DNA of 64,000 bases, from positions 9,378 to 73,377 of the forward strand of contig JBHLKK010000002.1 of NCBI GenBank assembly GCA_048886745.1. The letters run 5' to 3'. The notes beneath the pieces were generated by a model that was not told where the DNA came from, did not search any database, and saw only the letters and a list, made by a program, of their open reading frames with translations. The DNA is from Candidatus Hodarchaeota archaeon. Its GTDB lineage: Archaea; Asgardarchaeota; Odinarchaeia; Odinarchaeales; JBHLKK01. The position numbers and the translations under genes were made by a program. Positions within the stretch are counted from its first letter, which is position 1. Every line of letters starts with the position of its first letter. Below are positions 1,724 through 27,973 of this stretch, piece after piece.

Positions 1724-2014
1724 ATGAGCAAGAAAACGGATAAGAAAAAGGTCGTTCCGCTCTATCCTCTTAGAAAAGATAAAGAGTTCATACCCAGTAC
1801 CTATCGCGCTGGATTTGAGAACATTCTGGGGTTAGCAATGAATAGAGAACTTCCTGAGTATTTCCTGGAAGAACGTGATATGCTGGGTCTTGAGGAAATC
1901 CTTGCAGCTTGGAAAAATGAGAAGGCACAAAAAGATATTCAGAAACTAGCAAAAGAGCTTGGTCTGGATAAAAAGGTAGGATTTGATTGGGAAAAGAAGA
2001 AAATCAAGTACTAA
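1724..2014 (+). CDS. Hypothetical small lysine-rich protein
   Basis: 96-aa ORF with no conflicting ORF, lying between the ferredoxin gene and the CCG-domain gene. No recognisable motif. Confidence 0.35.
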   Translation: MSKKTDKKKVVPLYPLRKDKEFIPSTYRAGFENILGLAMNRELPEYFLEERDMLGLEEILAAWKNEKAQKDIQKLAKELGLDKKVGFDWEKKKIKY

Positions 2015-2028
2015 GAGTGATCTCATTA

Positions 2029-2885: not shown

Positions 2886-4330
2886 TAAATGTGGCTCTAG
2901 AAGGTCTTATCCCGTTATTCCTTATCCTATTGGGCGCAGCCCTAGTTATACCTGTGAAAACCATTTCCGACAAAGGCATGAAAGGCATGCTCTTAATGCT
3001 TTTCGCGGTAGCACTAGGTTTTAACACATGGTTATTATGGAATATTGTATTTGGGGCAGTCGATAGCTATTCGGTAAATGTATTTGTAGCGGATGGTGCC
3101 TCACTCTTTGTAACTGAGGTTATATTACTGATAGGCCTGATGTCCCTGATATATTCTATCAAATATATGGCCAAGACTCCACTCAAAACAGGAGTGTATT
3201 ATGGTATATTCGCTCTCTTTATTGCATCGATGATAGGAACAACTCTGGCTACCGAAGCAGTTGCTCTTTATGCGTTCCTGGAAACTATCACGGTGACTTC
3301 TGCTGTCTTGATTTTATATGGGCGGGGAGCCGCTTTGAGATCGACAATGATCTATCTTGTAATTGCTATTTTTGGTGCCATCCTTGTATTGGTGGGAATA
3401 TTCTTTATGTATACTTTCACTGGTACAACGCTGATTACGGGTGCAAGCGACTTGCCTTTTCTCACAGACTTTCAAAGGCTTTTGATATCTTCCTTCTTCT
3501 TCGTAGGTTTTGGAATAAAAGCTGGGGTGGTTCCTTTCGGATTACTGTGGCTTCCACCTGCACACAGTGATGCACCCACTCCAATAAGCGCAATCCTGTC
3601 CGGTATTATGATTAAAGTTGGAGCATTTGCCATGGTGAGGACAATCTATATATTCTATCCAGGGTTGGATATACTTATTCTTACGGTATCCAGCATAGGC
3701 ATAGCAAGTGTTTTGATTGGCGGTATTCTGGCCTTCTTCCAAAATGACATAAAGAGATTATTGGCGTTCAGTAGCATTTCCCAAATAGGATACATCATTC
3801 TCAGTTTTGGTCTGGGTACACTTGTAGGCATAGAAGGAGGTTTATTCCATCTGCTGAACCACGCCATCTTCAAGAGTCTCCTCTTTCTTACAGCAGGTAA
3901 TGTGATTTTACGCGTGAATACAAGGAACATACGAGAGATGGGAGGCCTATGGAATCGCATGCCAATAACATTATTTGTTTTTCTCATAGGTATGTTTTCA
4001 ATAATCGGTTGGATTCCGGGCTTCAGTGGGTATCAGAGCAAAACGATAATTCACCACGCTACCATAGCAGCGGGTTTTCCGATTTTTGGAATACTTGCGG
4101 ACATAGGAACTATAATAACGATCCTCTACTTGGGGCGAGCGATAATAGAGATATTCATAAAAAGGCCCAAGAATCCATCTCCCATAAAAAATGTCAAGGA
4201 GGCTCCTGTAACCATGCTAATTCCTACAATTATCCTCGCCTTGCTCTGTATTGTAATAGGTGTATTTCCAGGACTTGTATCCAGCATCCTGGAAATAGCT
4301 TCTAATGTTCTCGGGGGGTTGATTAGCTAA
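2882..4330 (+). CDS. NuoL/M/N-MrpD-type antiporter-like membrane subunit of a group 4 hydrogenase
   Basis: 482 aa, about 14 predicted TM helices. The conserved core (GFGIKAGVVPFGLLWLPPAHSDAPTPISAILSGIMIKVGAFAMVR) is typical of proton-pumping complex I / Mrp antiporter subunits. GTG start overlaps the upstream stop. Confidence 0.8.
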   Translation: MINVALEGLIPLFLILLGAALVIPVKTISDKGMKGMLLMLFAVALGFNTWLLWNIVFGAVDSYSVNVFVADGASLFVTEVILLIGLMSLIYSIKYMAKTPLKTGVYYGIFALFIASMIGTTLATEAVALYAFLETITVTSAVLILYGRGAALRSTMIYLVIAIFGAILVLVGIFFMYTFTGTTLITGASDLPFLTDFQRLLISSFFFVGFGIKAGVVPFGLLWLPPAHSDAPTPISAILSGIMIKVGAFAMVRTIYIFYPGLDILILTVSSIGIASVLIGGILAFFQNDIKRLLAFSSISQIGYIILSFGLGTLVGIEGGLFHLLNHAIFKSLLFLTAGNVILRVNTRNIREMGGLWNRMPITLFVFLIGMFSIIGWIPGFSGYQSKTIIHHATIAAGFPIFGILADIGTIITILYLGRAIIEIFIKRPKNPSPIKNVKEAPVTMLIPTIILALLCIVIGVFPGLVSSILEIASNVLGGLIS

Positions 4331-16076: not shown

Positions 16077-17042
16077 CTACTTCTCGCCACATCGCTCTAT
16101 CATTAGTTCCCAGTTCTTATCAATATGCCCTTGAATCTGATCGATAATATCGTTGCGTCTTTCCGGTCTGAATAGATGTCTGAACCTACCTTGAATCTTA
16201 AGAAACTCTTCAACGGGTTTCTTTTTTTCTGGCTTTCTGACTATGATCTTGCTTGGTGTAGATAGCCTGTAAACGATCTTTCCGTTTTCCAAAACTGCCT
16301 CCCAAAGCGGGAAGAAACAAGTTTCAACTGCTATTCTTGAAATCTTTATTGATATGGCTGGATCATGCCTCCACCCTCTCTGACATGAAGCAAAGAAGTG
16401 TAGGAATGCTGGACCTTGTGCATCATACGCCCTCTGGGCCTTTTGCATCAAGTCTCTCCAATAGGCTGGTGATGCAGTTGCTACATAAGGTATTTCATGT
16501 TCCACTGCAATCCTTGCAATGGGTTTTTTCCATTCAACCTTTCCAGGGATGACTTTCCCTGCAGGGCTTGTTGTCGTCCAAGCGTATCGAGACGTACCGC
16601 CGCTTCTCTGGATACCAGTATTCATGTATGCTTCATTATCAAGCAATACATACACAAAATCATGTCCTCGTTCTAGAGCTCCAGAAAGGGCTTGAATTCC
16701 GATATCTATTGTGCCGCCATCTCCAGCCAGTGCAATAACATTGATATGTCTTTTCAATTTACCACGTCTTCTAAAGCTTTTGAGAGCAGCCTCAATACCA
16801 CTCGCTGTAGCAGCTGCATTTTCAAATGCATTATGAATCCATGGTATTTTCCAAGAAGTATATGGATAGATGCTGGTTGAGACTTCGAGACAGCCTGTAG
16901 CGCTGACAGCTATAATAGGATCCTTGCTTGCTTTCAATAGAAGTCTTGTTGCGGTTCCTTCTCCACATCCAGGACACAATCTGTGACCTCCAGAAAGCAA
17001 TTCCTCTGGAGATTTTGCCAGTTCCTTGGCATTCAACGACAT
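16077..17042 (-). CDS. porB: Pyruvate/2-oxoacid:ferredoxin oxidoreductase beta subunit
   Basis: LCPGCGEG N-terminus. TPP-binding GDGGTIDIGIQALSGALERGHDFVYVLLDNEAYMNTGIQ. Confidence 0.85.
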   Translation of the reverse strand: MSLNAKELAKSPEELLSGGHRLCPGCGEGTATRLLLKASKDPIIAVSATGCLEVSTSIYPYTSWKIPWIHNAFENAAATASGIEAALKSFRRRGKLKRHINVIALAGDGGTIDIGIQALSGALERGHDFVYVLLDNEAYMNTGIQRSGGTSRYAWTTTSPAGKVIPGKVEWKKPIARIAVEHEIPYVATASPAYWRDLMQKAQRAYDAQGPAFLHFFASCQRGWRHDPAISIKISRIAVETCFFPLWEAVLENGKIVYRLSTPSKIIVRKPEKKKPVEEFLKIQGRFRHLFRPERRNDIIDQIQGHIDKNWELMIERCGEK

Positions 17043-17046
17043 CTTA

Positions 17047-18270
17047 CTATCTCACCCCCAGATATTGAATTCTTTCTTTAACCTTGCCAGTCTTGGCAAT
17101 TCTCAGTCCATCCTTAAACGCTTTTCTGATGAGTTCTTGGGGCACGTCACGACCACCCAGGCCATAAATATAATTTACTACAATTGGCTTTTCTTCTTTT
17201 TCGTAAAAGATCGCTCTCAACTCGTTAAATACCGGACCTCCGTATCCTCCTGGAACCGAGCTTCTATCCAGAACTGCGACAACCTTGATGCCCTCCAGTG
17301 CTTCTGACAATTTCTCGTATGGGAATGGTCTAAATACTCTAAGCTTCAGTGATCCGACTTTTGCTCCTTCATCTTGCATACTCTTTGCCACGTATCTAGT
17401 CGTACCTGCTGTCGAACCCAGACTCAAGATCGCCACATCGGCATCTTCCAGTCCTTGCTGTTCGATCATACCATAGGTTCGCCCTGAGATCTCGCCATAC
17501 TCCTTATCGATATCTTCGATGGCTTTCTCAACGTTGTTCATTGCCAAGATTTGCTGCATCTTAATTTCGAAATAATAGTCTGTCAATGCGAGATCGCCAA
17601 AACTCAGCGGATTGTCTGGATCTAGTACATATGGAACTTCCTTGCCCCCAGCATTTACCTTGGGAGTTACTTTCTCTCCTATGAAGTCTCTGACTGCTTC
17701 ATCTGGAAGCACGCTCACGTTTTCCAATGTGTGGCTTAGTACAAAACCGTCCAGCGTATCCATAATCGGTAATTGGACCTTAGGATGTTCAGCTATCCTC
17801 CATGCTTGGATTGTGGTATCATAGGCTTCTTGGCTGTTCTCACAGTAAATTTGTATCCAACCGCTATCTCGAGCCCCCATACTATCTGAATGGTCACAAT
17901 GAATATTGATGGGTGCTGAAAGCGCACGATTGACAACCGTCATAACTATTGGCAGACGTAATCCTGCAGCTATGTAGAGAATCTCCCACATTAATGCCAA
18001 ACCCTGACTAGCAGTTGCGGTGTATGCTCTTCCTCCTACAGCGGCCGCTCCCACGCATGCAGATAAAGCCGAATGTTCAGATTCAACAGCTACGAACTCA
18101 GTATTAACTTCTCCATCGGCAACATATTCTGAGAATCTCTCAACAATTATCGTCTGGGGTGTTATTGGATAAGCTGCCACGACATCTGGGTCGCATTGTT
18201 TTGCAGCAAAGGCTGCAGCCTCGTCGCCATTTAGAGCTAAAATCTTTTTCTTCACGGCCATATCGATCAC
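17047..18270 (-). CDS. porA: Pyruvate/2-oxoacid:ferredoxin oxidoreductase alpha subunit
   Basis: ILALNGDEAAAFAAKQCDPDVVAAYPITPQT N-terminus is typical of POR alpha. 407 aa. Confidence 0.85.
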   Translation of the reverse strand: MIDMAVKKKILALNGDEAAAFAAKQCDPDVVAAYPITPQTIIVERFSEYVADGEVNTEFVAVESEHSALSACVGAAAVGGRAYTATASQGLALMWEILYIAAGLRLPIVMTVVNRALSAPINIHCDHSDSMGARDSGWIQIYCENSQEAYDTTIQAWRIAEHPKVQLPIMDTLDGFVLSHTLENVSVLPDEAVRDFIGEKVTPKVNAGGKEVPYVLDPDNPLSFGDLALTDYYFEIKMQQILAMNNVEKAIEDIDKEYGEISGRTYGMIEQQGLEDADVAILSLGSTAGTTRYVAKSMQDEGAKVGSLKLRVFRPFPYEKLSEALEGIKVVAVLDRSSVPGGYGGPVFNELRAIFYEKEEKPIVVNYIYGLGGRDVPQELIRKAFKDGLRIAKTGKVKERIQYLGVR

Positions 18271-18554
18271 TCCTTAATCATGGTTATTGCTTCAACAGGA
18301 CATTCCTCTGCACAAACACCGCACCCTTTGCAGAAATCATAATCAAAAGAGATCTTTTCTCCATCCCACTTCACCGCTATATCTGGACAGTAAAGCCAAC
18401 ATAACATACAAGTCGTACATTTTTCATGATCTATTATTGGTTTGAATGTACGCCAATCACCTGTGTGATACTCTTCACTAGATTTCCAGGCAACTCCACC
18501 AATGGGTATTTCTTTCCAGCTCTTCTTCTCAGTCACTTGCTTTTGCCTCCTCAT
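18267..18554 (-). CDS. porD: POR delta subunit (2x[4Fe-4S] ferredoxin)
   Basis: CTTCMLCWLYCPD and CKGCGVCAEECP. 4-bp overlap with porA. Confidence 0.8.
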   Translation of the reverse strand: MRRQKQVTEKKSWKEIPIGGVAWKSSEEYHTGDWRTFKPIIDHEKCTTCMLCWLYCPDIAVKWDGEKISFDYDFCKGCGVCAEECPVEAITMIKE

Positions 18555-19104
18555 ATGCTCTCTTAATCAGTTCAACATTCATTTCGCCAACCTTTCCTCT
18601 AAATCTCTCTTTGGTTGCTTTCAGCACACTCTCCAGCTTTGTATACCCTGTTGCCTTTACTAGGGTACCAACCATGGCTGTACTGGTTATCTCCCGTCCA
18701 AGAATCTCTATAGAGAGATCAGTGGCCGGTATTGTCCAGACTCTTTGTGATTTGGCCATTTTGATTTTCTTCTTTAAGTCCGATGGAGAATCTCGCGAAT
18801 TTATCACTATTATGCCATTTTGAATCAATCCGTCAGAAACATCTACAGCATCAAGTAACGTGGGATCTAAGACTACAACGCTTTCCGGCTCATAAATGCC
18901 ACAATGCAAATCTATTGGACTATCCGAAATACGAACATATGCCTCCACGGGAGCACCGCTTCGCTCAGGTCCAAATGCTGGGAAGGACTGAGTATATCGC
19001 CTTTCATGGATCACTGCCTTTGCCAATATCTGTGTCGCGGTCCAAGCACCTTGACCACCTCTGCCATGAAATCTTATCTCTATAATCTTGTCCGCAGACA
19101 CCAC
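18529..19104 (-). CDS. porG: POR gamma subunit
   Basis: IRFHGRGGQGAWTATQILAKA is the signature of the gamma subunit. Operon order gamma-delta-alpha-beta. Confidence 0.8.
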   Translation of the reverse strand: MVSADKIIEIRFHGRGGQGAWTATQILAKAVIHERRYTQSFPAFGPERSGAPVEAYVRISDSPIDLHCGIYEPESVVVLDPTLLDAVDVSDGLIQNGIIVINSRDSPSDLKKKIKMAKSQRVWTIPATDLSIEILGREITSTAMVGTLVKATGYTKLESVLKATKERFRGKVGEMNVELIKRAYEEAKASD

Positions 19105-19215
19105 ATCGCCTCCAGATCATTAGATTAACCATACAACGTGAAATTAGAAGATAGATATAATAGTTATGCCCAAAAAAGGCATGAAAATTGCCAATTAGTT
19201 GTACCATCGGGGGTC

Positions 19216-20088
19216 TCACGGGCCATCTTTTGACAGATGGCTCTTAATAAGCTCCAAACTCAGGCTAAGTGCCTTGACTGAATGCGTTAAGCTTCCCATT
19301 GAGATTACATCAACACCGGTTGCTGCATACTCGTCGACGTTTTCGAATGTGATTCCTCCCGATGCTTCGATAATAACCTTTTCCCTTAATCCTTGATCTC
19401 TTAGCTCAATTATAGTTTGTCTAATCTGATTTGGCTTCATATTATCCAACATAATTATATCTGCCTTCGCTTTAGCTGCCCTCAAGCAGTCTTTGGTATT
19501 CTCGACCTCAATTTCCACCTTCTTGGAGAAGCTAGCCTTGGTTCGAGCGATTGTTATTGCAGTTTCGACATCTCCAACGAGAGTAAGATGATTATCTTTA
19601 ATTAATATGCAATCATCAAGCCTGAATCTATGAGTGTCTCCACCTCCAATCTCTGCGGCCCTTTTATCAAAGTATCTGAGAAGAGGAGCTGTCTTTCTGG
19701 TAACAGCAATCCGAATCCCCGGGTTAATCTTTTTTGCTTTTTCGATGGTTTCGTGAATTGCAGTGGCTATTCCACTCATTCGCATCAGGAAATTGAGTGC
19801 AGTTCGCTCACACGTGAGTATGGCTTTTGCGGATCCTTCGATAATCATAACGGTAGCTCCTTTTTTTTCGACCCTATCGCCATCATTCATTTTGAGTGTA
19901 ACTTCTAATCCCATTTGCTCAAAAAGGGTTTTTGCCTCTCTAATTCCGGCCAGGACGCCGAGCTCTTCGGCTACTATTCTGGCTTTGCCCTGCTCATCTC
20001 CAATTAGTATTTCTGTTGTTATGTCACCAAAACCTACATCTTCATTTAGAGCATGAATAACTCGCTCCTCAAAATCAAAACCCTTCAA
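19216..20088 (-). CDS. nadC: Nicotinate-nucleotide pyrophosphorylase (quinolinate phosphoribosyltransferase)
   Basis: 290 aa with KDNHL...DIIMLDNM...IEASGGI motifs of type II PRTases. Confidence 0.8.
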   Translation of the reverse strand: MKGFDFEERVIHALNEDVGFGDITTEILIGDEQGKARIVAEELGVLAGIREAKTLFEQMGLEVTLKMNDGDRVEKKGATVMIIEGSAKAILTCERTALNFLMRMSGIATAIHETIEKAKKINPGIRIAVTRKTAPLLRYFDKRAAEIGGGDTHRFRLDDCILIKDNHLTLVGDVETAITIARTKASFSKKVEIEVENTKDCLRAAKAKADIIMLDNMKPNQIRQTIIELRDQGLREKVIIEASGGITFENVDEYAATGVDVISMGSLTHSVKALSLSLELIKSHLSKDGP

Positions 20089-21021
20089 TCATGACAACTC
20101 CATCATACGTTCTATGGCCATTCTTGCCCTAGCTGCAATCTTATCGGGGACTTTCACTACGGGGGATTTATTTCTCAATGCAAGAAAAGCCTTCTCCAAG
20201 GTGATATGTTTCATTTGCTTACACACGGCTTCTTCGTTGGCGCAGATAAATGTTTTTCCAGGGATTTCCCGTCTCATTCTTTCAATCAATCCAATCTCAG
20301 TAGCAACTATGAATTCCTTAAAACCTGATTCTTGGGCATGTTTATACATTTGGCCAGTACTACCAACGAAATCTGCTGCTTTTTGAATTTCTGGATCACA
20401 TTCAGGGTGAACCATAAACTCTGCCTGTGGATATTGTTCCTTCTTCATAATGGATTCTCCGCCAAACATTGTATGAACGTAGCAATACCCATCTCTGGGA
20501 ATCGGTATTATTTCTTTATCTGAGATTTTACTTTGAACATACCATGCCAAATTCTTGTCGGGTCCAAAAAGAATCTTATCAGAATCAAGCTTTCTCACAA
20601 CATCTACCGCGTTAGCTGACGTACACATGATATCTGCTTCAGCCTTCGCTTCAGCTAGTGTATTAACATAAAGAACTACAATGGCATCAGGGTGCTGTTT
20701 CTTTGCTTCAACTACTTTGTCCGCGGTAAGCATAGCGGCCATTGGACATCTCGCCTCTATTGCCGGTAGAACCACTCTTTTGTTGGGGTTAAGAATTGAA
20801 GCAGTCTCGGCCATGAAATCAACTCCACAAAAGACGATGTAGTTTGCATCTTCAACTTCGGTGGCCTTGATTGAAAGCTGGAGGGAGTCTCCTATGAAAT
20901 CCGCTATCTCCTGTATCTCAGTTACTTGGTAGTTGTGGATGAGCATTACAGCGTTTTCTCTTTTCTTTAGTTCTAATGTCTTCCTCTGTAACTTACTTAA
21001 CGGAGACATAGTGATCCCCAA
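20089..21021 (-). CDS. nadA: Quinolinate synthase
   Basis: MLIHNYQ and HPECD motifs, 310 aa. Directly abuts nadC. Confidence 0.85.
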   Translation of the reverse strand: MGITMSPLSKLQRKTLELKKRENAVMLIHNYQVTEIQEIADFIGDSLQLSIKATEVEDANYIVFCGVDFMAETASILNPNKRVVLPAIEARCPMAAMLTADKVVEAKKQHPDAIVVLYVNTLAEAKAEADIMCTSANAVDVVRKLDSDKILFGPDKNLAWYVQSKISDKEIIPIPRDGYCYVHTMFGGESIMKKEQYPQAEFMVHPECDPEIQKAADFVGSTGQMYKHAQESGFKEFIVATEIGLIERMRREIPGKTFICANEEAVCKQMKHITLEKAFLALRNKSPVVKVPDKIAARARMAIERMMELS

Positions 21022-21024
21022 TAA

Positions 21025-21870
21025 TTAAGTTCCAATTTGTACGTGTTCACCAATTTTCCTTAATGTTCTTATAACTGAGAGTGCTGCAAGATAGCTTGTT
21101 TTGGGATTGTATAAGGAAGGCACATTCTCTACATGGATATATATGGTGCCAAAATCGCCCTTTGCAGCAATCTCGTGCACATTCTTATGTACCGTTGGAT
21201 CCGCGACTATTCTAACTCTCGTTCTTTCGGCACCAATCCCTGCTAAACTCAAAACCGCAGCAACATTAATATTCTGTGGAAACATTCTTGCTCCCTCTTC
21301 TGCATCCCCCTCATAAACCACGGTTGGCTTGTTGATTGACTCTAAATCAATTTCATGTTGAACGATGTAGGGTGCTCCCTTTAGCGTATTGGGAGGCTTA
21401 CGTGATGTCAGTGTCACTTCGGTAAGATTAGCAGTCGAAGCAGATTTTACTCCGTCCAAACCAGCTATTGCTCCAGATGGAAGATAGACCATCTTATCAT
21501 TTCTCTCTGCGGTTTCTTCAATTTCTTTCAGCAACTGTTTATCTACAAGGGCTCCTATGCTTAGTATTAGCAGGTCTTTGCCTGAGTTTAGAATTTTGAT
21601 TGCATATTCTTTGACAACTTCCTGAGAAGCTGCTTCTATAATCAGGTTAATTTGATCGTTTACAATAAGTTCATCTGGCGTTTTAGCGACCTCGGGTTTT
21701 TTGACCATTCTCTGAATACACTTCTCCGCGTTCTCCTTTATTACGTCATATACCATGACTAATTCTGTGTCTCCTGCTTTGCCATCTTTGATTGCATCAG
21801 AGATAATATATCCAATTGCTCCGCACCCAATCAAACCTACTTTGAGTTTTGCCATCTGTTTCGCCAGCAC
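21025..21870 (-). CDS. nadX: L-aspartate dehydrogenase
   Basis: N-terminal Rossmann motif VGLIGCGAIG. 281 aa. First gene of a nadX-nadA-nadC operon. Confidence 0.75.
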   Translation of the reverse strand: MLAKQMAKLKVGLIGCGAIGYIISDAIKDGKAGDTELVMVYDVIKENAEKCIQRMVKKPEVAKTPDELIVNDQINLIIEAASQEVVKEYAIKILNSGKDLLILSIGALVDKQLLKEIEETAERNDKMVYLPSGAIAGLDGVKSASTANLTEVTLTSRKPPNTLKGAPYIVQHEIDLESINKPTVVYEGDAEEGARMFPQNINVAAVLSLAGIGAERTRVRIVADPTVHKNVHEIAAKGDFGTIYIHVENVPSLYNPKTSYLAALSVIRTLRKIGEHVQIGT

Positions 21871-22353: not shown

Positions 22354-23199
22354 TTATTCTAGAATTATCCTCTCCAAGAGTTCCAGAAGATTGTTTCGTT
22401 GCGATTTCTCTATCGCCACCAGTCCATAGGTCTTAATACCAAGTATCTTTTCAATTTCTTCGGGAGGAAGCGCATTTCCACGATCCTGTTTGTTCGCAAC
22501 TCCTATGATTTTTGCATATGGGGCTTTGCTCTTGACCAGTGGAAGGATTTTCTCTCTTGTCAGCTTTATATTATCCAGTGTAGAGTCACAGATTATGGCA
22601 ATGACTTCTGTTCCCTTAACAAGTATGTCCCACGCAGACATGAATTGCTCCTGACCTGCGAAGTCGAATATCATGACATAATATACTCCTACTGTAACTG
22701 TAAGTGGTTCTCTATCAGCGAAGATCGTAGGGACATATTTCATTGGAATTTCTTCTTTTCTCAAGAGACGAAGTATAGTTGTCTTCCCAACACCTCCAAA
22801 TCCGACCAAAGACAATTTTACAGGAAGCTTGCTTATAATATCTATCACAACGCTGTCAAATCCATCCCCTAGCTTGGAGCTATTCTCAGTCTGATTCTCC
22901 GGACCAAACTTCTTAATGAATGAGGTCGTTATTTCCAACAGAATATCCTGAACTTCTCGTTCTGAATTTGTTCTATCGCTTAATATAGCGAATATATTCC
23001 CGTTTGACTTGAGATAGGAGAACCTGAAACGGACAATGTTCGTGTGCTCAATATTACCCATCTCCATCCTTTCGGAGGCACCCAAAATTGTAGGCAGTAT
23101 TGCATCCACTGAAATCTCCTTCGATTTCGTGTATGCTTTGTGGAAAACCTTACCTCCTGTTTTGTTGAGTATTAGTACCTCTCGTATCAACTGCGCCAC
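22354..23199 (-). CDS. Fusion protein: N-terminal longin/roadblock-like domain plus C-terminal Arf-family small GTPase
   Basis: The first 110 aa or so are a small alpha/beta regulatory-type domain (IREVLILNKTGGKVFHKAY...NGNIFAILSDRT...ILLEITTSFIKKF). Then G1 GFGGVGKTTI, G3 FDFAGQEQF and G4 VANKQD (the NKQD variant typical of Arf/Sar/SRbeta). Confidence 0.7.
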   Translation of the reverse strand: MAQLIREVLILNKTGGKVFHKAYTKSKEISVDAILPTILGASERMEMGNIEHTNIVRFRFSYLKSNGNIFAILSDRTNSEREVQDILLEITTSFIKKFGPENQTENSSKLGDGFDSVVIDIISKLPVKLSLVGFGGVGKTTILRLLRKEEIPMKYVPTIFADREPLTVTVGVYYVMIFDFAGQEQFMSAWDILVKGTEVIAIICDSTLDNIKLTREKILPLVKSKAPYAKIIGVANKQDRGNALPPEEIEKILGIKTYGLVAIEKSQRNNLLELLERIILE

Positions 23200-23476
23200 C
23201 CGGGATTCTGCTCAATCTAAAATATCGTATCTAAACATTTAATGCTTTCGCAATACTGATACGCATCTTTGTGATAATCGCAAAGCACCAAGAGCAAAAT
23301 CAGAAGAAATCTATGGAAGGACCTATCATCCGAGTCAATATGATAATTTTATTATATTCAAAATCTCTAATATTATATACGAAAAGAAAAGAATATACAC
23401 CCCCTGATTAATAAAGAAAAGACAAGAAAAGCGATATTATGTTATCGTAAAGGGGTATATTAAGGGGGAAGATGAG

Positions 23477-25315
23477 TTGCCCAAGACCGCGAAATATATG
23501 TTTAAGATAATTACTGTCGGGGATGGGATGGTTGGCAAAACCAGTCTTATTCTACGATTCACTGAAAATACCTTCAAGGAAACCTATAAGAAAACAATCG
23601 GGGCCGATTTCGCCATCAAGAATGTTGATATTGACGGGACCATAGCCAAGCTCCAAATCTGGGATTTAGGCGGTCAGGATACTTTTAAGGATCTTCGCAA
23701 GATATTCTATCCTGGAGCCCGTGGAGCTATATATGTTTTCGATGTCTCTAACAGACCATCCTTCGAGAACATCAGACACTGGTTTAAAGATATAGATGCA
23801 GTAGTTGGGGATGTTCCCAGACTATTGGTTGGTAATAAGATAGATCTAGAGAGAGAAATAAGCTATAAAGAAGGGAAACAACTGGCCGATGAGTTAGGTA
23901 TGGATTATCTTGAGACCAGCGCTAAAACTGGAGAAAAGGTAGTGGATATATTTAAGATCATGGCAAGAGTGACAGTTGGCGAGAAAGCTGAAGGAATTCC
24001 TTCTGAGGTTCCCGCTCAAATACCTGCAAAAGTCCCTGGAATCTCTGTAGATACTTCATTTGCTATAGGTCCAGAAGCTGAACTGGAATCTGATATTCCC
24101 GCAACACCTGCTGATCTGCTACCCGCTGAACCAGCAATACTCCCTGAGGTTGTTATGGATGTCTATGAATGGATTGAATCACACAGAAACGATTTCATAG
24201 ATTTACTAAAACGGCTCGTAAGCGCTGATACAACCAATCCTCCTGGACATGAATTCAGAGCAGCTAGAATAATACTGGAAGAATTACTGAAAGACAATAT
24301 CAGATTCAGGGTTTATGAAAGCGAGAAGGATAGAACGAATGTTGTTAGTTGGTCTGGTAAAGCTGAGAACCCCTCTGTTATGCTGGTTTGTCATCATGAT
24401 GTCGCACCGCAAGTTGAGGGATGGAAACATCCGCCACTTGATGCTCTTGAAAAAGAAAATAGGATATACGGGTTAGGAGCCTGTTGTAGTAAAGGTCCCC
24501 TAGTTTCTGCCATAATGGCTCTTAGAGCGATCCACGTTCTTAATGTAGAACTAAACGGACAAGCAATGGTTGTCGCAGCATCCGATGGACTTGGAGATGG
24601 GACAATTGGATTAAGGCATCTGATAGAGGAGGTAGGACTCGCTCCAAATCATGCAATTGTAGCTAGTCCTACAAACTGTACAACAATAAAGACCGTAGAA
24701 CTGGAGACACTGGCCTTCAGACTTACGAGCAGAGGACGAGTGTTTGAACCTTCATTTAAGGACATCAATGCTGCCGAAAAACTCGTTAAGGTGCTAGCGG
24801 GATTCAATGATTCAGACCAAAGCGAATATCCAATGCTAGCCAAATGTTCAATTAACATAAGGGAGATCAGAGGAATGCCTGGTGTTGGTGGAATTCCTGA
24901 ATGGGCAGAGGCAACTATAGATATTCGTCATCTATTCAAAGAGAACAATGAAAAGATACTCGATGAGGTTCGGAAACTCATTGATAATGTCAGGATATTG
25001 GATTCCGATGTTGATGTGACCATCGAGGAATTGCCCGAACCTCTAAAGATTGCTTCTTCAGTCGATGCTCCTGTGGTCATGGCGGTTCGAGACGGCCTAT
25101 ACAATACTATCAACAAAGAACCCTCTTTTACTGAAACCAAAGAGAATATCTTGGCGAAGATACTGGTTCAGAGCAAAATACCCGTGTGCATATTTGGTCC
25201 TGGGAATGAAGAGAAATGCAACAGTCCAAACGAGTATATTGAGATTGATGATATGATTGAGGGTGCTAAGGTTTTTGCTGCGTCCCTAATTACTTTGCTA
25301 GGTATTAAAGACTGA
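23477..25315 (+). CDS. Fusion protein: Rab-like small GTPase, Pro-rich linker, then a divergent M20 (ArgE/DapE-like) peptidase domain
   Basis: N-terminal 170 aa: GDGMVGKTS (G1), WDLGGQDTF (G3), GNKIDL (G4), ETSAKTG (G5). Linker PSEVPAQIPAKVPG...PATPADLLPAEPAILPEV. C-terminal domain with M20 landmarks (VCHHDVAPQVEGWKHPP, IYGLGACCSKG, GPGNEEKCNSPNEYIEIDD). TTG start at 23477 preceded by AAGGGGG; an alternative ATG lies at 23498. Confidence 0.75.
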   Translation: MPKTAKYMFKIITVGDGMVGKTSLILRFTENTFKETYKKTIGADFAIKNVDIDGTIAKLQIWDLGGQDTFKDLRKIFYPGARGAIYVFDVSNRPSFENIRHWFKDIDAVVGDVPRLLVGNKIDLEREISYKEGKQLADELGMDYLETSAKTGEKVVDIFKIMARVTVGEKAEGIPSEVPAQIPAKVPGISVDTSFAIGPEAELESDIPATPADLLPAEPAILPEVVMDVYEWIESHRNDFIDLLKRLVSADTTNPPGHEFRAARIILEELLKDNIRFRVYESEKDRTNVVSWSGKAENPSVMLVCHHDVAPQVEGWKHPPLDALEKENRIYGLGACCSKGPLVSAIMALRAIHVLNVELNGQAMVVAASDGLGDGTIGLRHLIEEVGLAPNHAIVASPTNCTTIKTVELETLAFRLTSRGRVFEPSFKDINAAEKLVKVLAGFNDSDQSEYPMLAKCSINIREIRGMPGVGGIPEWAEATIDIRHLFKENNEKILDEVRKLIDNVRILDSDVDVTIEELPEPLKIASSVDAPVVMAVRDGLYNTINKEPSFTETKENILAKILVQSKIPVCIFGPGNEEKCNSPNEYIEIDDMIEGAKVFAASLITLLGIKD

Positions 25316-25337
25316 TGGATAATCTTAAAACTCAGAA

Positions 25338-26897
25338 GTGTTTACATACTTAGCCCTGGTAATTGCTGGGGGGAGTAACTTGGATATTATTACTGTTGAA
25401 GAGATGAGGATTGCAGACAGGAATTCCGGCTATCTAGGCGTTTCACCTCATATCTTGATGGAAAACGCAGGAAGAGGAGTCGCGGATGTCATCAACAACT
25501 CTCATAAGGTTGAAGGCAAGAAAATCGTTGTATTCTGTGGGCTAGGAAATAATGGTGGAGATGGATTTGTAGCTGCCAGGCACCTGGCTGGCTTGGGAGC
25601 CACCGTATGCCTTATCCTAATGGGTCACCCTGATCGGATTCACACACCTGAGGCCCTAAGGAATTGGATAATTCTGGACAGGATGCGGTTAACCGTTAAT
25701 AAGGTGATTTTCGCAGATTTCTCGGAAAGCTCCAAGGTTAAGGATCTAGTATCTGATGCAGACATAGTTGTAGATGCTATTCTTGGAACAGGATTCTCTG
25801 GAAAGCTTAAGGATCCTATTACTACAGCCGTTAACATAATCAATAGTTCCACTGGATTAAAGGTTGCTGTTGACGCACCAACAGGAGTTGATGCATCTAC
25901 CGGAAAGATATCTGATGGAGCGGTTGAAGCAGATCTGACAATAACATTCCACAAAGCTAAACCCGGATTACTTAAAGCGCATAAACATGTAGGTCAACTT
26001 ATAGTGACTGGAATTGGTATTCCGCCAGAAGCAGAGATTATTGCAGGACCTGGAGATGTGGAAGTAATCCAGAAAAGCCGTGGCCCATATGCCAAGAAAG
26101 GGGAATTTGGAAAAATACTGGTTATTGGGGGAGGCAGTTATTATCATGGGGCTCCCATATTTGTCGCTTTCGCAGCCCTTAGAGCTGGAGCAGACCTCGC
26201 AATCATCGCTACTCCAAGCAGTGTAGTGGACGCGGTAAGAAGTTTTTCTCCGAATCTGATTGTCCGTAGCCTACCTGGGGATGTTCTTACGGAGGATGCG
26301 ATCCCATCGTTGAAAGGACTTATTGACTGGGCATCCTGCGTTGCCATCGGCCCTGGTTTGGGCGTTGAAGCAGAAACAACGGACGCTGTACTTCAAATCC
26401 TTGATCTTATCAAAGAGTCCAATAAATCGACGCTGGTTGATGCCGATGCAATAAAGGCAATGGCAGAAAAGAAGACGATCTTGAATGGAGTTCCTGCTGT
26501 ATTAACACCCCACGCTGGCGAATATGCCAAACTTACTGGCGAAATCTTACCTCCCCCTGAGGAGCTTGAGAAAAGAATTGACAGAATAATGAAAACAGCA
26601 AGAGAACTTGGTGTAGTTTTGCTTCTTAAAGGTCATGAAGATATTATTTCTGATGGAAAACGCTACAAAATCAACACTACTGGCAATCCTGGTATGACTG
26701 TGGGGGGTACAGGTGACGTTCTCAGTGGTGTCGCCTCAACGTTTCTTTCGCAAGGTTCCAATCCATTTAGAGCAGCGATTTCAGCTGCCTTCATAAATGG
26801 CCGAGCCGGTGATTTAGCTGTGGATAAATTGGGCCATCATATTGTTGCTACGGATGTCATAGAGATGATTCCAAAGGCCATAAGGGAATGCTTGTGA
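25338..26897 (+). CDS. nnr: Bifunctional NAD(P)H-hydrate repair enzyme (YjeF-N epimerase plus ADP-dependent dehydratase)
   Basis: VFCGLGNNGGDGFVAARHL (YjeF_N) and C-terminal GTGDVLSG carbohydrate-kinase-like motif. Confidence 0.8.
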   Translation: MFTYLALVIAGGSNLDIITVEEMRIADRNSGYLGVSPHILMENAGRGVADVINNSHKVEGKKIVVFCGLGNNGGDGFVAARHLAGLGATVCLILMGHPDRIHTPEALRNWIILDRMRLTVNKVIFADFSESSKVKDLVSDADIVVDAILGTGFSGKLKDPITTAVNIINSSTGLKVAVDAPTGVDASTGKISDGAVEADLTITFHKAKPGLLKAHKHVGQLIVTGIGIPPEAEIIAGPGDVEVIQKSRGPYAKKGEFGKILVIGGGSYYHGAPIFVAFAALRAGADLAIIATPSSVVDAVRSFSPNLIVRSLPGDVLTEDAIPSLKGLIDWASCVAIGPGLGVEAETTDAVLQILDLIKESNKSTLVDADAIKAMAEKKTILNGVPAVLTPHAGEYAKLTGEILPPPEELEKRIDRIMKTARELGVVLLLKGHEDIISDGKRYKINTTGNPGMTVGGTGDVLSGVASTFLSQGSNPFRAAISAAFINGRAGDLAVDKLGHHIVATDVIEMIPKAIRECL

Positions 26898-26970
26898 GTT
26901 ATTATTGTGCGGGCGGTTGCTCACATTATTCGAAGGCTTTTGTATCAGAGTTGTTGCGGTTTATTAACAG

Positions 26971-27924
26971 TTGAAGGAAAAGTTAAATTATAGGAAAATA
27001 ATAATAAAGACTGAGACCAAAACGCATGAAAAAGATGTGTTAGTCATGATACTTTACGGTGTATCGGATACTGGTGATCTGAACGAATTGAAAGGGGACA
27101 AACCAATTAAGGATTATTTGGTTAGCGACAAGGTTCTTATTTTAATAGATGACGACTTGAAGAAAATTTGGATATGGAAAGGTAAAAGCGCCCCTGTCCG
27201 ACAGAAATTTATTAGTGCGCGAGTGGCAAATCAAATAAGGCAAGAAAGAGGATTGACCTACAAAACTCTAAGCATTGATGAAGGTGATGAATCGCAAGAG
27301 TTTCTTGATTCATCAGGAGCCAAACCAAAGAAAGCCCCCCATCCTCCCCTTCCAGCTGAGCCCAAGCCTCCCGCTCCTGTTCCGGCTCCTGAGTCTGTTC
27401 CAACACCGGCTGCTTCAGCTCCCAAGCCCTTGGCCAAACAGCCTGAAGCACCAAAAACTCCAATGACGTCAAAAGCCACTTCACCTGTGCCCTCCCCCGC
27501 CACAGCAATCGTTACACCTCTTGAAGCGGAGGTGATATCAAAACTTGAAAGAGTTGAAATCCCTCGTGGATATGAAAGAGAGTTGGTTATCGTTGGCAAT
27601 GAGGTGTATGCAATCACAGAATACAGAACGATTTTTCTGGGGGAGAAGAAGGTTGAAACAAAGCTGGAAAAAGCTGCCAAGCTGCCAGAGGGGATATTTT
27701 TCGCAGAAGGTTACACACCCAGGGTAATAGTGGACAAAGGTCGCGTTCTGGCTGTTGAATTCTTGAAAACGGGTAAGGGGGTTGAAGTTCCTACCACGGA
27801 TGCTGCTGCCCGTTCATTGCGAGATGAAATGAAACTACATCTGAGCGACCTAGTCGATTTCTTCAAAATAGATATCCCTAAGAAAGAGAAGAAGCAGAAG
27901 AAGGAAAAGAAGGGAAAGAAATAG
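26971..27924 (+). CDS. Gelsolin-domain protein: N-terminal gelsolin/villin-type domain, polyproline linker, C-terminal domain with a Lys-rich tail
   Basis: VSDKVLILIDDDLKKIWIWKGKSAPVRQKFISARVANQIRQERGLTYKTLSIDEGDESQEFLD aligns motif-for-motif with gelsolin/villin G1 (..DCFILD....I..W.G..S...E...A......IRD.ER.G.A...V..EG.E...ML.). Then PHPPLPAEPKPPAPVPAPESVPTP. It ends KKEKKQKKEKKGKK. Confidence 0.6.
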   Translation: MKEKLNYRKIIIKTETKTHEKDVLVMILYGVSDTGDLNELKGDKPIKDYLVSDKVLILIDDDLKKIWIWKGKSAPVRQKFISARVANQIRQERGLTYKTLSIDEGDESQEFLDSSGAKPKKAPHPPLPAEPKPPAPVPAPESVPTPAASAPKPLAKQPEAPKTPMTSKATSPVPSPATAIVTPLEAEVISKLERVEIPRGYERELVIVGNEVYAITEYRTIFLGEKKVETKLEKAAKLPEGIFFAEGYTPRVIVDKGRVLAVEFLKTGKGVEVPTTDAAARSLRDEMKLHLSDLVDFFKIDIPKKEKKQKKEKKGKK

Positions 27925-27973
27925 CGGAACACTAAGATAGATTGTAATTGACACATTATTTGATTCGGGGGAT

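What the first reader, a model, noticed from the sequence alone, without database searches (positions are those of the whole stretch)
23477..25315. Rab-like GTPase fused via a proline-rich linker to a divergent M20 peptidase-like domain in which catalytic Asp/His positions are cysteines
The GTPase half has a complete canonical Rab-like motif set: GDGMVGKTS, WDLGGQD, NKID, SAK. The C-terminal 400 aa or so is recognisably M20/ArgE/DapE-like (HHDVAPQVEGWKHPP; C-terminal GPGNEEKCNSPNEYIEIDD where M20 enzymes have G.G....aHspdE). The GRGAxDxKG motif is GLGACCSKG, where the metal-binding Asp is Cys. The EE(G)G general-base/ligand pair reads SDGLGDG. The C-terminal metal-ligand His is Cys. This could be a pseudo-enzyme acting as a GTPase-regulated scaffold or effector domain, or a Cys-ligated metal site with new chemistry. 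I am not aware of this architecture from eukaryotic Rab biology.
Basis: partly seen in the sequence, partly recalled or inferred. Interest (0 to 1): 0.7.

Follow-up and report, generated by a model that had tools for sequence, protein, structure and literature searches.

The report
Rab-like GTPase fused to dead peptidase
An Asgard archaeon encodes a Rab-like molecular switch permanently joined to a metal-dependent hydrolase domain that has lost nearly all of its catalytic residues yet is still strictly conserved, so an enzyme seems to have been turned into a non-catalytic part of a GTPase signalling module.

Summary
Window 23477-25315 (+) is one uninterrupted 612-aa gene. It has a Rab-like G domain (residues 1-170, all five G motifs), a disordered Pro-rich linker (171-224) and an ArgE/DapE-type M20 domain (225-612).

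Residue-level alignment confirms Asp100->Cys337 and Glu134/Glu135->Gly371/Leu372. It corrects one claim: the C-terminal ligand His is Asn582, and the Cys (581) is its neighbour. It adds Glu163->Ser397 and the oxyanion His194->Glu424. Only 1 of 5 metal ligands survives, so this is a pseudoenzyme rather than a Cys-based metal site.

The dead domain is under purifying selection as strong as the GTPase (dN/dS about 0.06 against about 0.05; linker 0.4).

The fusion is rare: 4 clusters among 1.84 billion representatives. It is also old. Jord/Freyr-archaeia copies keep every catalytic residue, one Jordarchaeial subclade has lost one or two, the Hod-type (this window) has lost most, and Odinarchaeia have lost all. 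The G motifs are invariant throughout.

Hod and Odin share the gene order fusion | Nnr | gelsolin-domain protein | Roadblock.

Most likely function: a non-catalytic dimerisation or docking module for a Rab-like switch. I found no published description. It is a new variant of known kinds, of moderate interest.

The parts
23477..25315 (+). Whole fusion gene, 612 codons plus stop; TTG start preceded by a purine-rich AAGGGGGAAGATGAG stretch
   Evidence: ORF list and translation. Upstream sequence. The N-terminus MPKxxxY.FKI is shared with all orthologues, which supports the TTG start. Identical to NCBI MFX0096261.1.
23477..23986 (+). Rab-like G domain (residues 1-170): P-loop G15-S23, switch I T40, D63xxG66Q67, N120KxD123, S148AK150
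   Evidence: Pfam Ras E 8.7e-52. Best solved relatives are human Rab1A (E 4.4e-44), Rab8A, Sec4, Ypt1 and Thorarchaeota Rab 7ezb. The G-motif residues are invariant in all 13 fusion proteins. Codons verified.
23987..24148 (+). Pro-rich flexible linker (residues 171-224; 10 Pro in 54)
   Evidence: AF2 pLDDT below 50 for 175-209. dN/dS 0.17-0.70 over the six pairs (0.40 and 0.70 in the two least saturated), against about 0.05 in the flanking domains. Much shorter in Jord/Freyr orthologues.
24149..25312 (+). ArgE/DapE-type M20 domain without a functional metal centre (residues 225-612). The catalytic subdomain is split by the lid/dimerisation subdomain at about residues 404-512 (nt about 24686-25012).
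   Evidence: Pfam Peptidase_M20 and M20_dimer. TIGR01910 160.6 bits, below the 217.6 cut-off. AF2 pLDDT mostly above 90. Foldseek top hits are DapE 7uoi (E 2.7e-26) and ArgE 8uw6/7rsf. hhalign E 1.7e-53. dN/dS 0.03-0.07.
24392..24400 (+). H306-H307-D308: retained His67 ligand and Asp69 of the HxD motif
   Evidence: Alignments. Codons. HiDapE residue roles from PMC13058870 Table 2.
24482..24487 (+). C336-C337 in GLGACCSKG: C337 replaces the bridging ligand Asp100
   Evidence: Identical in all four Hod-type sequences.
24587..24592 (+). G371-L372 replace the general base Glu134 and the ligand Glu135
   Evidence: One phmmer alignment shifts this by one residue, but in no alignment is either Glu present.
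24665..24667 (+). S397 replaces the ligand Glu163 (VASPT for xEPT)
24746..24748 (+). E424 replaces the lid His194 (oxyanion hole, supplied in trans in DapE dimers)
   Evidence: Residue role.
24926..24928 (+). R484 of the D-I-R motif is retained. It is probably equivalent to the alpha-carboxylate-binding Arg258 of HiDapE.
   Evidence: Alignment. The equivalence to R258 is inferred from residue counting in the 7uoi alignment, not tested directly.
25217..25222 (+). C581-N582: Asn582 replaces the ligand His349; Cys581 is the neighbouring residue
22354..23199 (-). Divergently transcribed longin-like plus Arf/Rag-like GTPase (281 aa), conserved next to the fusion in all Hod-type contigs
   Evidence: Pfam Arf E 4.6e-15 and a weak Longin hit at E 0.002. 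Synteny in L004-L006.
25338..26897 (+). Bifunctional NAD(P)HX epimerase/dehydratase (Nnr), 22 nt downstream
   Evidence: Pfam YjeF_N and Carb_kinase. Same position in Odin loci.
26971..27924 (+). Gelsolin-domain protein: N-terminal gelsolin repeat, Pro-rich middle and a conserved C-terminal domain with no family
   Evidence: phmmer to Lokiarchaeota 2DGel 7whg, E 2.6e-9. Pfam Gelsolin at E 0.017 here and 1.6e-4 for the Odin orthologue. 46% identical to the syntenic Odin gene.
27974..28372 (+). Roadblock/LC7-like protein (132 aa), candidate regulator of the GTPase
   Evidence: Pfam Robl_LC7 E 4.3e-4, below the cut-off. 70% identical to the syntenic Odin gene.
30285..33104 (-). Leucyl-tRNA synthetase-like gene, the shared synteny anchor of the fusion locus in Hod, Odin and Jord/Freyr
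   Evidence: Pfam. BLAST synteny table.

Best explanation
The gene encodes a two-module protein of an Asgard (Hodarchaeota-labelled) archaeon.

The N-terminal module is a complete Rab-like GTP switch. A disordered Pro-rich linker of about 50 residues tethers it to an ArgE/DapE-type M20 domain. That domain keeps its two-lobed fold (catalytic lobe plus lid/dimerisation lobe) but has lost the di-zinc centre.

Of the ligands His67, Asp100, Glu135, Glu163 and His349, only His67 (H306) remains. The general base Glu134 and the oxyanion His194 are also gone. It therefore cannot hydrolyse amide bonds by the M20 mechanism and is a pseudoenzyme (shown).

The fusion arose once, from an active deacylase that still exists in fused form in Jord/Freyr-archaeia, and then lost catalysis in the Hod and Odin lines (inferred from the alignment series and shared synteny).

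The dead domain is retained under strong purifying selection, and its lid/dimerisation lobe is still recognisable. The most likely present role is therefore non-catalytic: a dimerisation and docking platform that pairs two G domains and/or presents them to partners. The co-oriented downstream Roadblock protein (the MglB/LAMTOR type of GTPase regulator) and the gelsolin-domain protein are the leading candidate partners (inferred, not shown).

The confidence of 0.6 is for the whole statement. The pseudoenzyme part alone is about 0.9, and the specific dimerisation/docking role about 0.4.
For: - Uninterrupted ORF and domain calls.
- Residue-by-residue ligand mapping against solved DapE/ArgE and against 20 or more homologues, with residue roles from PMC13058870.
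- AF2 gives a confident M20 fold with a disordered linker and pTM 0.60, which indicates two loosely coupled bodies. Foldseek top hits are DapE and ArgE.
- dN/dS is 0.063 for the M20-like domain, 0.047 for the GTPase and 0.40 for the linker, in the least saturated pair.
- G motifs are invariant in all fusions, while M20 ligands vary by clade.
- TIGR01910 scores fall in steps: 279.9 and 267.5 (Jord/Freyr), 160.6 and 162.6 (Hod), none (Odin).
- Only 4 clusters at 50% identity among 1.84e9 representatives cover the whole fusion.
- It is present in 2 further Hod-type, 8 Jord/Freyr and 3 Odin species genomes.
- The string fusion | Nnr | gelsolin-domain | Roadblock | PGM(-) is conserved between Hod and Odin, with LeuRS(-) as the anchor in all three clades.
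Against: - No experiment or complex prediction supports dimerisation or binding to Roadblock or the gelsolin-domain protein. Gene order is the only link.
- In Jord/Freyr the fusion lacks these neighbours.
- AF2 output gave no inter-domain error map and no coordinates, so docking of the G domain on the lid could not be assessed.
- The lid lobe is only marginally better conserved than the catalytic lobe between clades.
- Retained R484, H306 and D308, together with a cluster of Cys residues, leave room for residual ligand or metal binding.
- All Hod-type sequences are at least 83% identical, so conservation of individual residues within that clade says little.
- The NJ tree is rough (68% support for Hod with Jord/Freyr), and the position of Odin is unresolved.
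Confidence: 0.6

Rival explanations
1. Ligand-sensing pseudoenzyme. The M20 pocket no longer cleaves but still binds an amino acid or N-acyl amino acid. Lid closure on ligand binding changes the state or partner choice of the tethered Rab-like switch, in the way pseudoenzyme sensors feed the eukaryotic Rag/Ragulator system.
For: - The lid Arg of the DIR motif (R484, probably the alpha-carboxylate-binding Arg258), H306 and D308 are retained.
- Purifying selection covers the catalytic lobe as strongly as the lid.
- Roadblock and longin-GTPase genes flank the locus.
Against: - The conserved Asn of GGxxxNxVP is Gly471, and His194 is Glu424.
- The Odin orthologues lost the Arg as well and deleted the GRGAxD loop, yet keep the same operon. 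The function shared between clades therefore cannot depend on this pocket.
- No ligand is known.
Confidence: 0.2
2. A remodelled Cys/His metal site with new chemistry. H306, C337 and neighbouring cysteines (C305, C336, C581) bind a single metal or form a redox-active site.
For: Cys337 sits exactly at the bridging Asp position, and three more Cys and a second His lie in the former active-site motifs. All are identical in the four Hod-type sequences.
Against: - C305, C336 and C581 each occur at the same positions in canonical M20 enzymes that keep all ligands (P0026 FACHLD and VCHKPDEY; P0089 GRGACDMKG). They lie within normal family variation.
- The His349 position is Asn, not Cys.
- Glu135, Glu163 and the general base are Leu, Ser and Gly.
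- The four sequences are at least 83% identical, so identity at these sites is weak evidence.
- The sister clades with the same architecture have either the normal site or none.
Confidence: 0.08
3. It is still an ordinary M20 hydrolase, and the apparent substitutions are alignment errors.
For: Public annotation calls it an 'M20/M25/M40 family metallo-hydrolase'. The fold and several motifs (HxD, GxGA..KG, GPG..NEY) are recognisable.
Against: Independent alignments agree that no Asp, Glu-Glu, Glu or His is available at or next to the ligand positions. These are phmmer to three solved enzymes, three MAFFT alignments and hhalign. The flanking motif residues align without gaps. The score is below the NCBIfam family cut-off.
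Confidence: 0.02
4. Artefactual fusion: a frameshift or assembly error joined two adjacent genes.
For: None beyond the general possibility in MAG data.
Against: The same continuous ORF is found in independent assemblies. These are NCBI MAGs H2M.176 and H2M.186, Logan run SRR34261174 and further cluster members on 5 contigs. It is also found in Jord/Freyr, including a closed chromosome (CP147778.1), and in Odin genomes. The linker is in frame and conserved in position.
Confidence: 0.01
5. Functionless remnant: the M20 part is decaying after loss of catalysis, and only the GTPase matters.
For: Between clades the M20 part diverges far more (13-35% identity) than the GTPase (47-55%).
Against: Within the Hod-type clade, dN/dS of the M20 part is 0.03-0.07, equal to the GTPase, whereas the linker shows 0.17-0.70. 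The domain is retained at full length in every clade, including Odin.
Confidence: 0.03

Closest known systems
Jord/Freyr-archaeial Rab-M20 fusion proteins (e.g. P0004, P0005, P0007; annotated 'ArgE/DapE family deacylase')
   Same: Same architecture and order: Rab-like G domain, linker, M20 with lid. They are 35% identical over 99% of the length, and the LeuRS gene lies nearby. The G motifs are identical.
   Different: - They keep all five metal ligands, Glu134 and His194, and pass the TIGR01910 cut-off.
- Their linker is short.
- Their neighbours are a NikR-like gene and a class II aaRS rather than Nnr, gelsolin-domain and Roadblock.
Odinarchaeial orthologues (P0011-P0014; annotated 'Rab family GTPase' or 'GTP-binding protein')
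   Same: Same architecture. The operon fusion | Nnr | gelsolin-domain | Roadblock | PGM(-) is the same. The G domain is 55% identical.
   Different: The M20 part is degenerate beyond Pfam/NCBIfam detection: the GRGAxD loop is deleted and no ligand is left. It is recognisable only by profile-profile and fold comparison.
DapE/ArgE/LysK M20 deacylases (PDB 7uoi, 7rsf/8uw6, 3ic1/5vo3, 5xoy)
   Same: Two-lobed fold with lid/dimerisation domain. HxD, GxGA..KG and GPG...NEY motif scaffolds. These are the top Foldseek and phmmer hits.
   Different: No di-metal centre, no general base and no oxyanion His. About 16-20% identity. Fused to a GTPase.
Eukaryotic Rab1/Rab8/Sec4/Ypt1 and the solved Thorarchaeota Rab (7ezb)
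   Same: About 40-46% identity across the G domain. All G motifs, the catalytic Gln and a KLQIW (RabF2-like) motif are present.
   Different: There is no C-terminal hypervariable tail with prenylatable cysteines. Instead the chain continues into a 440-residue extension. Switch II reads WDLGGQ rather than WDTAGQ.
Transferrin receptor and other non-peptidase homologues of clan MH (M28/M20) metallopeptidases (own knowledge, not tested here)
   Same: A co-catalytic zinc peptidase fold that lost its ligands and was kept as a dimeric binding scaffold.
   Different: Different family (M28), eukaryotic, membrane-anchored, and not linked to a GTPase.
Roco proteins (Roc-COR) and Rag GTPases (G domain plus C-terminal roadblock dimeriser)
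   Same: A Ras-like G domain followed by a C-terminal domain whose job is dimerisation. This is a model for how the M20 lobe might be used here. Asgard longin/roadblock-GTPase fusions are documented (PMC10933270).
   Different: The fused domain here is neither COR nor roadblock. Dimerisation is inferred only from M20 family behaviour.

Membership tests
Ras-superfamily small GTPase, Rab-like (Pfam PF00071) | Profile match above the curated threshold | tested here: met
   175.4 bits against a cut-off of 21.6. TIGR00231 small_GTP 95.4 against 42.5.
Ras-superfamily small GTPase, Rab-like (Pfam PF00071) | G1 GxxxxGK[ST], G2 Thr, G3 DxxGQ, G4 NKxD, G5 SAK | tested here: met
   G15-S23, T40, D63-Q67, N120-D123 and S148-K150. 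Invariant in all fusion orthologues.
Ras-superfamily small GTPase, Rab-like (Pfam PF00071) | Closest solved relatives are Rabs rather than Ras/Rho/Arf/Ran | tested here: met
   Top 60 phmmer hits are all Rab/Ypt/Sec4, with Rab1A at E 4.4e-44.
Eukaryotic Rab family sensu stricto | C-terminal Cys prenylation motif (CC, CXC, CAAX) after a hypervariable tail | tested here: not met
   The G domain runs into the linker and the M20 domain, and the protein ends ...LLGIKD.
Eukaryotic Rab family sensu stricto | RabF1-5 motifs (IGVDF, KLQIW, RFrsiT, YYRGA, LVYDIT; from own knowledge of Pereira-Leal and Seabra 2000) | tested here: inconclusive
   Read directly: IGADF and KLQIW match. TFKDLR, FYPGA and YVFDVS match only partly.
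M20 metallopeptidase/deacylase fold (Pfam PF01546 + PF07687) | Profile matches to the catalytic and dimerisation domains; M20 fold | tested here: met
   66.1 and 33.2 bits, both above cut-offs. Foldseek DapE E 2.7e-26.
ArgE/DapE family deacylase (NCBIfam TIGR01910) | Score at or above the curated cut-off | tested here: not met
   160.6 against 217.6 bits. Jord/Freyr orthologues score 279.9 and 267.5.
ArgE/DapE family deacylase (functional enzyme) | Five metal ligands His67, Asp100, Glu135, Glu163, His349 (HiDapE numbering, PMC13058870) | tested here: not met
   The five positions read H306, C337, L372, S397 and N582, so one of five is kept.
ArgE/DapE family deacylase (functional enzyme) | General base Glu134 and oxyanion-hole His194 | tested here: not met
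   G371 and E424.
ArgE/DapE family deacylase (functional enzyme) | Metal content and hydrolytic activity | not testable with these tools
   Needs recombinant protein.
Dimerisation-dependent G proteins (Roco/Rag-like logic) | C-terminal domain mediates homo- or heterodimerisation of the G domains | not testable with these tools
   The M20_dimer lobe is present. No multimer prediction or coordinates were available.
Rag GTPase family | C-terminal roadblock domain in the same chain | tested here: not met
   The C-terminal domain is M20. Roadblock is a separate gene at 27974-28372.

The most novel reading that the evidence does not exclude
The Rab-M20 fusion is an ancient Asgard signalling device in which a metabolic deacylase was captured by a Rab-like switch and then converted, more than once, into a metabolite-sensing or scaffolding pseudoenzyme. 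Together with the co-encoded Roadblock and gelsolin-domain proteins, it would couple nutrient or amino-acid status to the actin cytoskeleton or membrane. That would be a prokaryotic counterpart of Rag/Ragulator-type nutrient sensing, built from different parts.
Probability: 0.12. Interest if true: 0.85.

Novelty: new variant of a known kind. Interest (0 to 1): 0.5.

Why it matters
Asgard small GTPases are studied as forerunners of eukaryotic membrane-traffic and signalling switches, but almost nothing is known about what they act on. Here the effector-like domain is covalently attached, so the pairing is unambiguous.

Comparison across three Asgard lineages captures an enzyme-to-pseudoenzyme transition at residue resolution, with an invariant GTPase. 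The conserved neighbours (Roadblock and a gelsolin-domain protein) name concrete candidate partners that can be tested in vitro.

It also corrects public annotation. The Hod-type proteins are labelled metallo-hydrolases although they lack the metal site, and the Odin ones are labelled plain Rab GTPases although they carry a hidden M20 domain.

The limits are clear. The family is rare, both domains are well-known kinds, Asgard genomes are already known for domain shuffling (bioRxiv 10.1101/2020.10.19.343400), and the mechanism is inferred.

Tried and rejected
- Bacterial-type promoter/terminator scan of 23100-28500 found counts equal to shuffles. It is uninformative for an archaeon.
- A metagenome-contig scan with the C-terminal domain, run to enlarge the Hod-type clade and test Cys337 conservation, found only M20 proteins at about 25% identity. 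A second protein search with the C-terminal half alone also added no Hod-type members.
- Other Rab proteins of about 500-600 aa from the representative search (P0197, P0199, P0224, P0178) were checked as possible further degenerate fusions. They are a different family, with a Rab domain, a long Pro-rich region and a C-terminal zinc ribbon. P0016 is Roadblock-Rab-other.
- Hermodarchaeota locus L078 has an unfused Rab-like gene and a near-canonical M20 gene (four of five ligand positions canonical; the Glu163 position is Asp or unresolved) about 620 nt apart. An opposite-strand membrane-protein gene lies between them, and that M20 groups with standalone enzymes, so I do not treat it as a split form.
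- The standalone M20 P0106/P0245, which nests with the fusion M20 domains, has no GTPase neighbour.
- Literature searches for the fusion in the held library found nothing. I searched Asgard + GTPase + M20/ArgE/deacylase, domain architecture, and gelsolin/roadblock operon. The main Asgard GTPase papers mention only longin and roadblock fusions.
- I could not obtain model coordinates or inter-domain error estimates. Cys-Cys distances and G-domain docking on the lid therefore remain untested.
- Reading the fusion as a G3E-type metallochaperone was considered and rejected, because the G domain is Rab-like and not SIMIBI class.
Full report
**1. What is there**

Window 23477..25315 on the + strand is a single 612-codon ORF with a TTG start and no internal stop. 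A purine-rich stretch, AAGGGGGAAGATGAG, lies directly upstream. The N-terminal peptide MPKxxxY.FKI is shared by all orthologues, which supports that start.

The identical protein is in NCBI as MFX0096261.1. It comes from a MAG labelled Candidatus Hodarchaeota (an Asgard archaeon) and is annotated 'M20/M25/M40 family metallo-hydrolase'.

Profile scans give:
- Pfam Ras at residues 10-164 (E 8.7e-52).
- Peptidase_M20 at 303-603 (E 5.3e-18).
- M20_dimer at 429-504 (E 5.3e-08).
- NCBIfam TIGR01910 (ArgE/DapE family deacylase) over 241-599 at 160.6 bits, below its curated cut-off of 217.6.

An AlphaFold2 model (mean pLDDT 86) has two confident bodies joined by a segment (175-209) with pLDDT below 50. 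The pTM is 0.60, as expected for loosely coupled domains. Foldseek against the PDB puts DapE (7uoi, E 2.7e-26) and E. coli ArgE (8uw6, 7rsf) on top. The G domain's best solved relatives are human Rab1A (E 4.4e-44), Rab8A, Sec4, Ypt1 and a Thorarchaeota Rab. The linker 171-224 has 10 prolines in 54 residues.

**2. The catalytic positions**

I use the HiDapE roles tabulated in PMC13058870:
- Metal ligands: His67, Asp100, Glu135, Glu163, His349.
- Asp69 orients His67.
- Glu134 is the general base.
- His194 from the partner subunit forms the oxyanion hole.

The mapping rests on phmmer alignments to solved DapE/ArgE and on MAFFT alignments with orthologues and canonical standalone M20 enzymes. Codons were verified.

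| HiDapE residue | Window protein | Status |
|---|---|---|
| His67 | H306 | kept |
| Asp69 | D308 | kept |
| Asp100 | C337 | lost |
| Glu134 | G371 | lost |
| Glu135 | L372 | lost |
| Glu163 | S397 | lost |
| His194 | E424 | lost |
| His349 | N582 | lost |

In addition, the conserved Asn of the GGxxxNxVP motif is G471. The lid Arg of the D-I-R motif is kept as R484. By residue counting in the 7uoi alignment this is probably Arg258, the alpha-carboxylate binder. That equivalence is an inference.

Cysteines at positions 305, 336 and 581 each occur in canonical M20 enzymes with intact ligands (P0026: FACHLD and VCHKPDEY; P0089: GRGACDMKG). They are therefore not evidence for a new Cys-based site. 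With one of five ligands and no general base, the M20 hydrolytic mechanism cannot operate, and the domain is a pseudoenzyme.

**3. It is not decaying**

Four Hod-type genes are available from independent assemblies: the window, L004 (a Logan assembly), and L005 and L006 (other MAGs). They are 83-91% identical.

Nei-Gojobori estimates for the least saturated pair (window against L005, dS about 0.63) give:
- dN/dS 0.063 for the M20-like domain.
- dN/dS 0.047 for the GTPase.
- dN/dS 0.40 for the linker.

The pair L004 against L006 gives 0.071, 0.084 and 0.70. The ligand-less domain is thus constrained as tightly as the switch itself.

**4. The fusion elsewhere**

A word-indexed search of 5.8 billion proteins found full-length relatives in three groups:
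- The Hod-type.
- Jord/Freyr-archaeia: about 576 aa, 35% identity, annotated ArgE/DapE family deacylase.
- Odinarchaeia: 552-581 aa, about 30% identity, annotated Rab or GTP-binding protein, with no Pfam M20 hit.

An exhaustive HMMER search of 1.84 billion cluster representatives with a profile of the fusion found only four clusters covering the whole profile in one stretch. All other top hits were multi-Rab proteins, standalone Rabs or standalone M20 enzymes.

In one genome per GTDB species, the fusion is present in 2 further Hod-type genomes, 8 Jord/Freyr genomes (including the closed chromosome CP147778.1) and 3 Odin genomes. About 65 other Asgard loci matched only through the roughly 170-200-residue Rab domain (up to about 270 aa in three loci). 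This rules out an assembly artefact.

**5. A graded series**

At the eight functional positions:
- The main Jord/Freyr clade (L007-L012) has every canonical residue.
- A second Jordarchaeial clade has lost Glu163 (L013), or Glu163 and Glu134 (L014 = P0010).
- The Hod-type has lost everything except His67.
- Odin proteins have lost all of them and have deleted the GRGAxD loop.

TIGR01910 scores follow the same order: 279.9 and 267.5 bits, then 160.6 and 162.6, then no hit.

The Odin C-terminal half is still homologous to M20:
- hhalign gives probability 94.8% and E 5e-8 over 340 columns.
- One caveat: the modelling alignment contained canonical M20 sequences.

By contrast, all G-motif residues are invariant in every fusion protein. 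The G domain is 47-55% identical between clades, against 13-35% for the M20 parts.

A rough NJ tree groups the Hod-type M20 domain with the Jord/Freyr fusion domains and one standalone enzyme, P0106 (68% bootstrap). I read this as one ancient fusion of a Rab-like switch to an active deacylase, followed by loss of catalysis in some lines. The number of independent losses is not settled.

**6. Genomic context**

In the window the gene order is:
- longin-like + Arf/Rag-like GTPase (22354-23199, minus strand, divergent);
- the fusion;
- Nnr, the NAD(P)HX epimerase/dehydratase (25338-26897, 22 nt downstream);
- a 317-aa protein (26971-27924);
- a Roadblock/LC7-like protein (27974-28372);
- phosphoglucomutase (minus strand);
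- LeuRS (minus strand).

The 317-aa protein has an N-terminal gelsolin repeat, a Pro-rich middle and a conserved C-terminal domain with no family. The gelsolin repeat matches Lokiarchaeota 2DGel 7whg at E 2.6e-9 by phmmer, and Pfam Gelsolin at E 0.017 here and 1.6e-4 in the Odin orthologue.

The other Hod-type contigs share this order. So do the Odin genomes: fusion | Nnr | gelsolin-domain (46% identical) | Roadblock (70% identical) | PGM(-), with gaps of 3-45 nt.

Jord/Freyr loci instead have a NikR-like gene and a class II aaRS downstream, but share the nearby LeuRS(-).

Roadblock proteins are the MglB/LAMTOR class of small-GTPase regulators. Asgard roadblock and longin GTPase partnerships are documented (PMC10933270; bioRxiv 10.1101/2020.10.19.343400). 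The context therefore suggests, but does not show, that the fusion works with Roadblock and perhaps with the gelsolin-domain protein.

**7. Mechanism**

Shown:
- A complete Rab-like switch.
- A flexible tether.
- An M20 fold without a metal centre, under purifying selection.
- Conservation of the fusion across three Asgard lineages.

Inferred: the dead domain serves as a non-catalytic platform. M20 enzymes of this subfamily dimerise through the lid lobe, and the lid is still detected by Pfam here. I therefore favour a dimerisation and docking role that pairs two G domains or presents them to partners, by analogy with Roc-COR and Rag C-terminal dimerisers.

Rivals:
- A ligand-sensing pseudoenzyme. 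R484, H306 and D308 are kept. However, the Odin orthologues lost the pocket yet keep the operon.
- A Cys/His metal site. This is unlikely, for the reasons in section 2.
- A residual enzyme, an artefact, or a functionless remnant. All three are contradicted by the evidence above.

**8. Novelty and score**

I found no description of this architecture in the held literature, including the main surveys of Asgard GTPases. The absence of a hit in a partial library is not proof.

Both domains are well-known kinds, and Asgard ESPs are known for lineage-specific domain shuffling. I therefore class it as a new variant of known kinds. Interest is moderate (0.5). It offers a clean, testable case of an enzyme turned into a GTPase-attached pseudoenzyme in the archaeal lineage nearest to eukaryotes, with named candidate partners. 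It is also rare, and its mechanism is only inferred.

Noticed in passing
window 26971-27924 (+); orthologue L002:9331-10191: 317-aa protein with an N-terminal gelsolin repeat (PDB 7whg Lokiarchaeota 2DGel, E 2.6e-9), a Pro-rich middle and a conserved C-terminal domain of about 120 aa that matches no family. It always lies between Nnr and Roadblock in Hod-type and Odin genomes.
   Followed up: partly
window 25338-28372 (+); L002, L005, L006, L015-L017: The co-oriented, tightly spaced string fusion | Nnr (NAD(P)HX repair) | gelsolin-domain | Roadblock is conserved between two distant Asgard classes. The Roadblock protein is 70% identical between them, far more than the fusion protein (about 30%). 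Why a metabolite-repair enzyme sits in this string is unexplained.
   Followed up: partly
window 22354-23199 (-): Longin-like plus Arf/Rag-like GTPase (281 aa), divergently transcribed from the fusion across a 277-bp AT-rich spacer. It is conserved next to the fusion in all Hod-type contigs but absent from the Odin and Jord/Freyr loci.
   Followed up: partly
L001:7754-8185 and the same position in L007-L012: In Jord/Freyr-archaeia, where the fused M20 domain keeps its metal ligands, a NikR-like gene (ribbon-helix-helix plus NikR_C metal-binding domain) starts roughly 10-20 nt (or overlapping) after the fusion gene's stop. A class II aaRS follows. A possible link between a metal-responsive regulator and the metal-dependent form of the fusion was not tested.
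   Followed up: no
L013:5787-7598 and L014:2377-4149 (P0010): A second Jordarchaeial subclade shows partial ligand loss: Glu163->Gly in both, and Glu134->Gly in L014. It still passes the ArgE/DapE cut-off (P0010, the L014 protein, 267.5 bits; L013 not scored). This looks like an intermediate stage of pseudo-enzymisation, or an altered metal stoichiometry.
   Followed up: partly
L078:728-1297 and 1921-3141 (Hermodarchaeota YT1_014): An unfused Rab-like gene and a near-canonical M20 gene (the Glu163 position is Asp or unresolved) lie about 620 nt apart, separated by an opposite-strand membrane-protein gene. This is probably coincidental.
   Followed up: partly
proteins P0197, P0199, P0224, P0178: Another family of long Rab-like proteins (487-612 aa): an N-terminal Rab domain, a low-complexity Pro/Ser/Thr-rich region of several hundred residues, and a C-terminal CxxC...CxxC zinc ribbon. 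It is unrelated to the M20 fusion.
   Followed up: no
window 16077-21870 (-): A 2-oxoacid:ferredoxin oxidoreductase gene set (three of its subunit genes listed, 16077-19104) is followed by a de novo NAD cluster: quinolinate phosphoribosyltransferase 19216-20088, NadA 20089-21021, and aspartate dehydrogenase 21025-21870. It lies on the opposite strand, a few kb upstream of the Nnr gene.
   Followed up: no
whole window 1-64000: ARAGORN finds no tRNA gene in the whole 64 kb window.
   Followed up: no
public annotation of P0001, P0250 and P0011-P0014: Annotations are misleading. The Hod-type proteins are named metallo-hydrolases although 4 of 5 metal ligands are missing. The Odin orthologues are named Rab or GTP-binding proteins although about 370 residues are a degenerate M20 domain.
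   Followed up: yes
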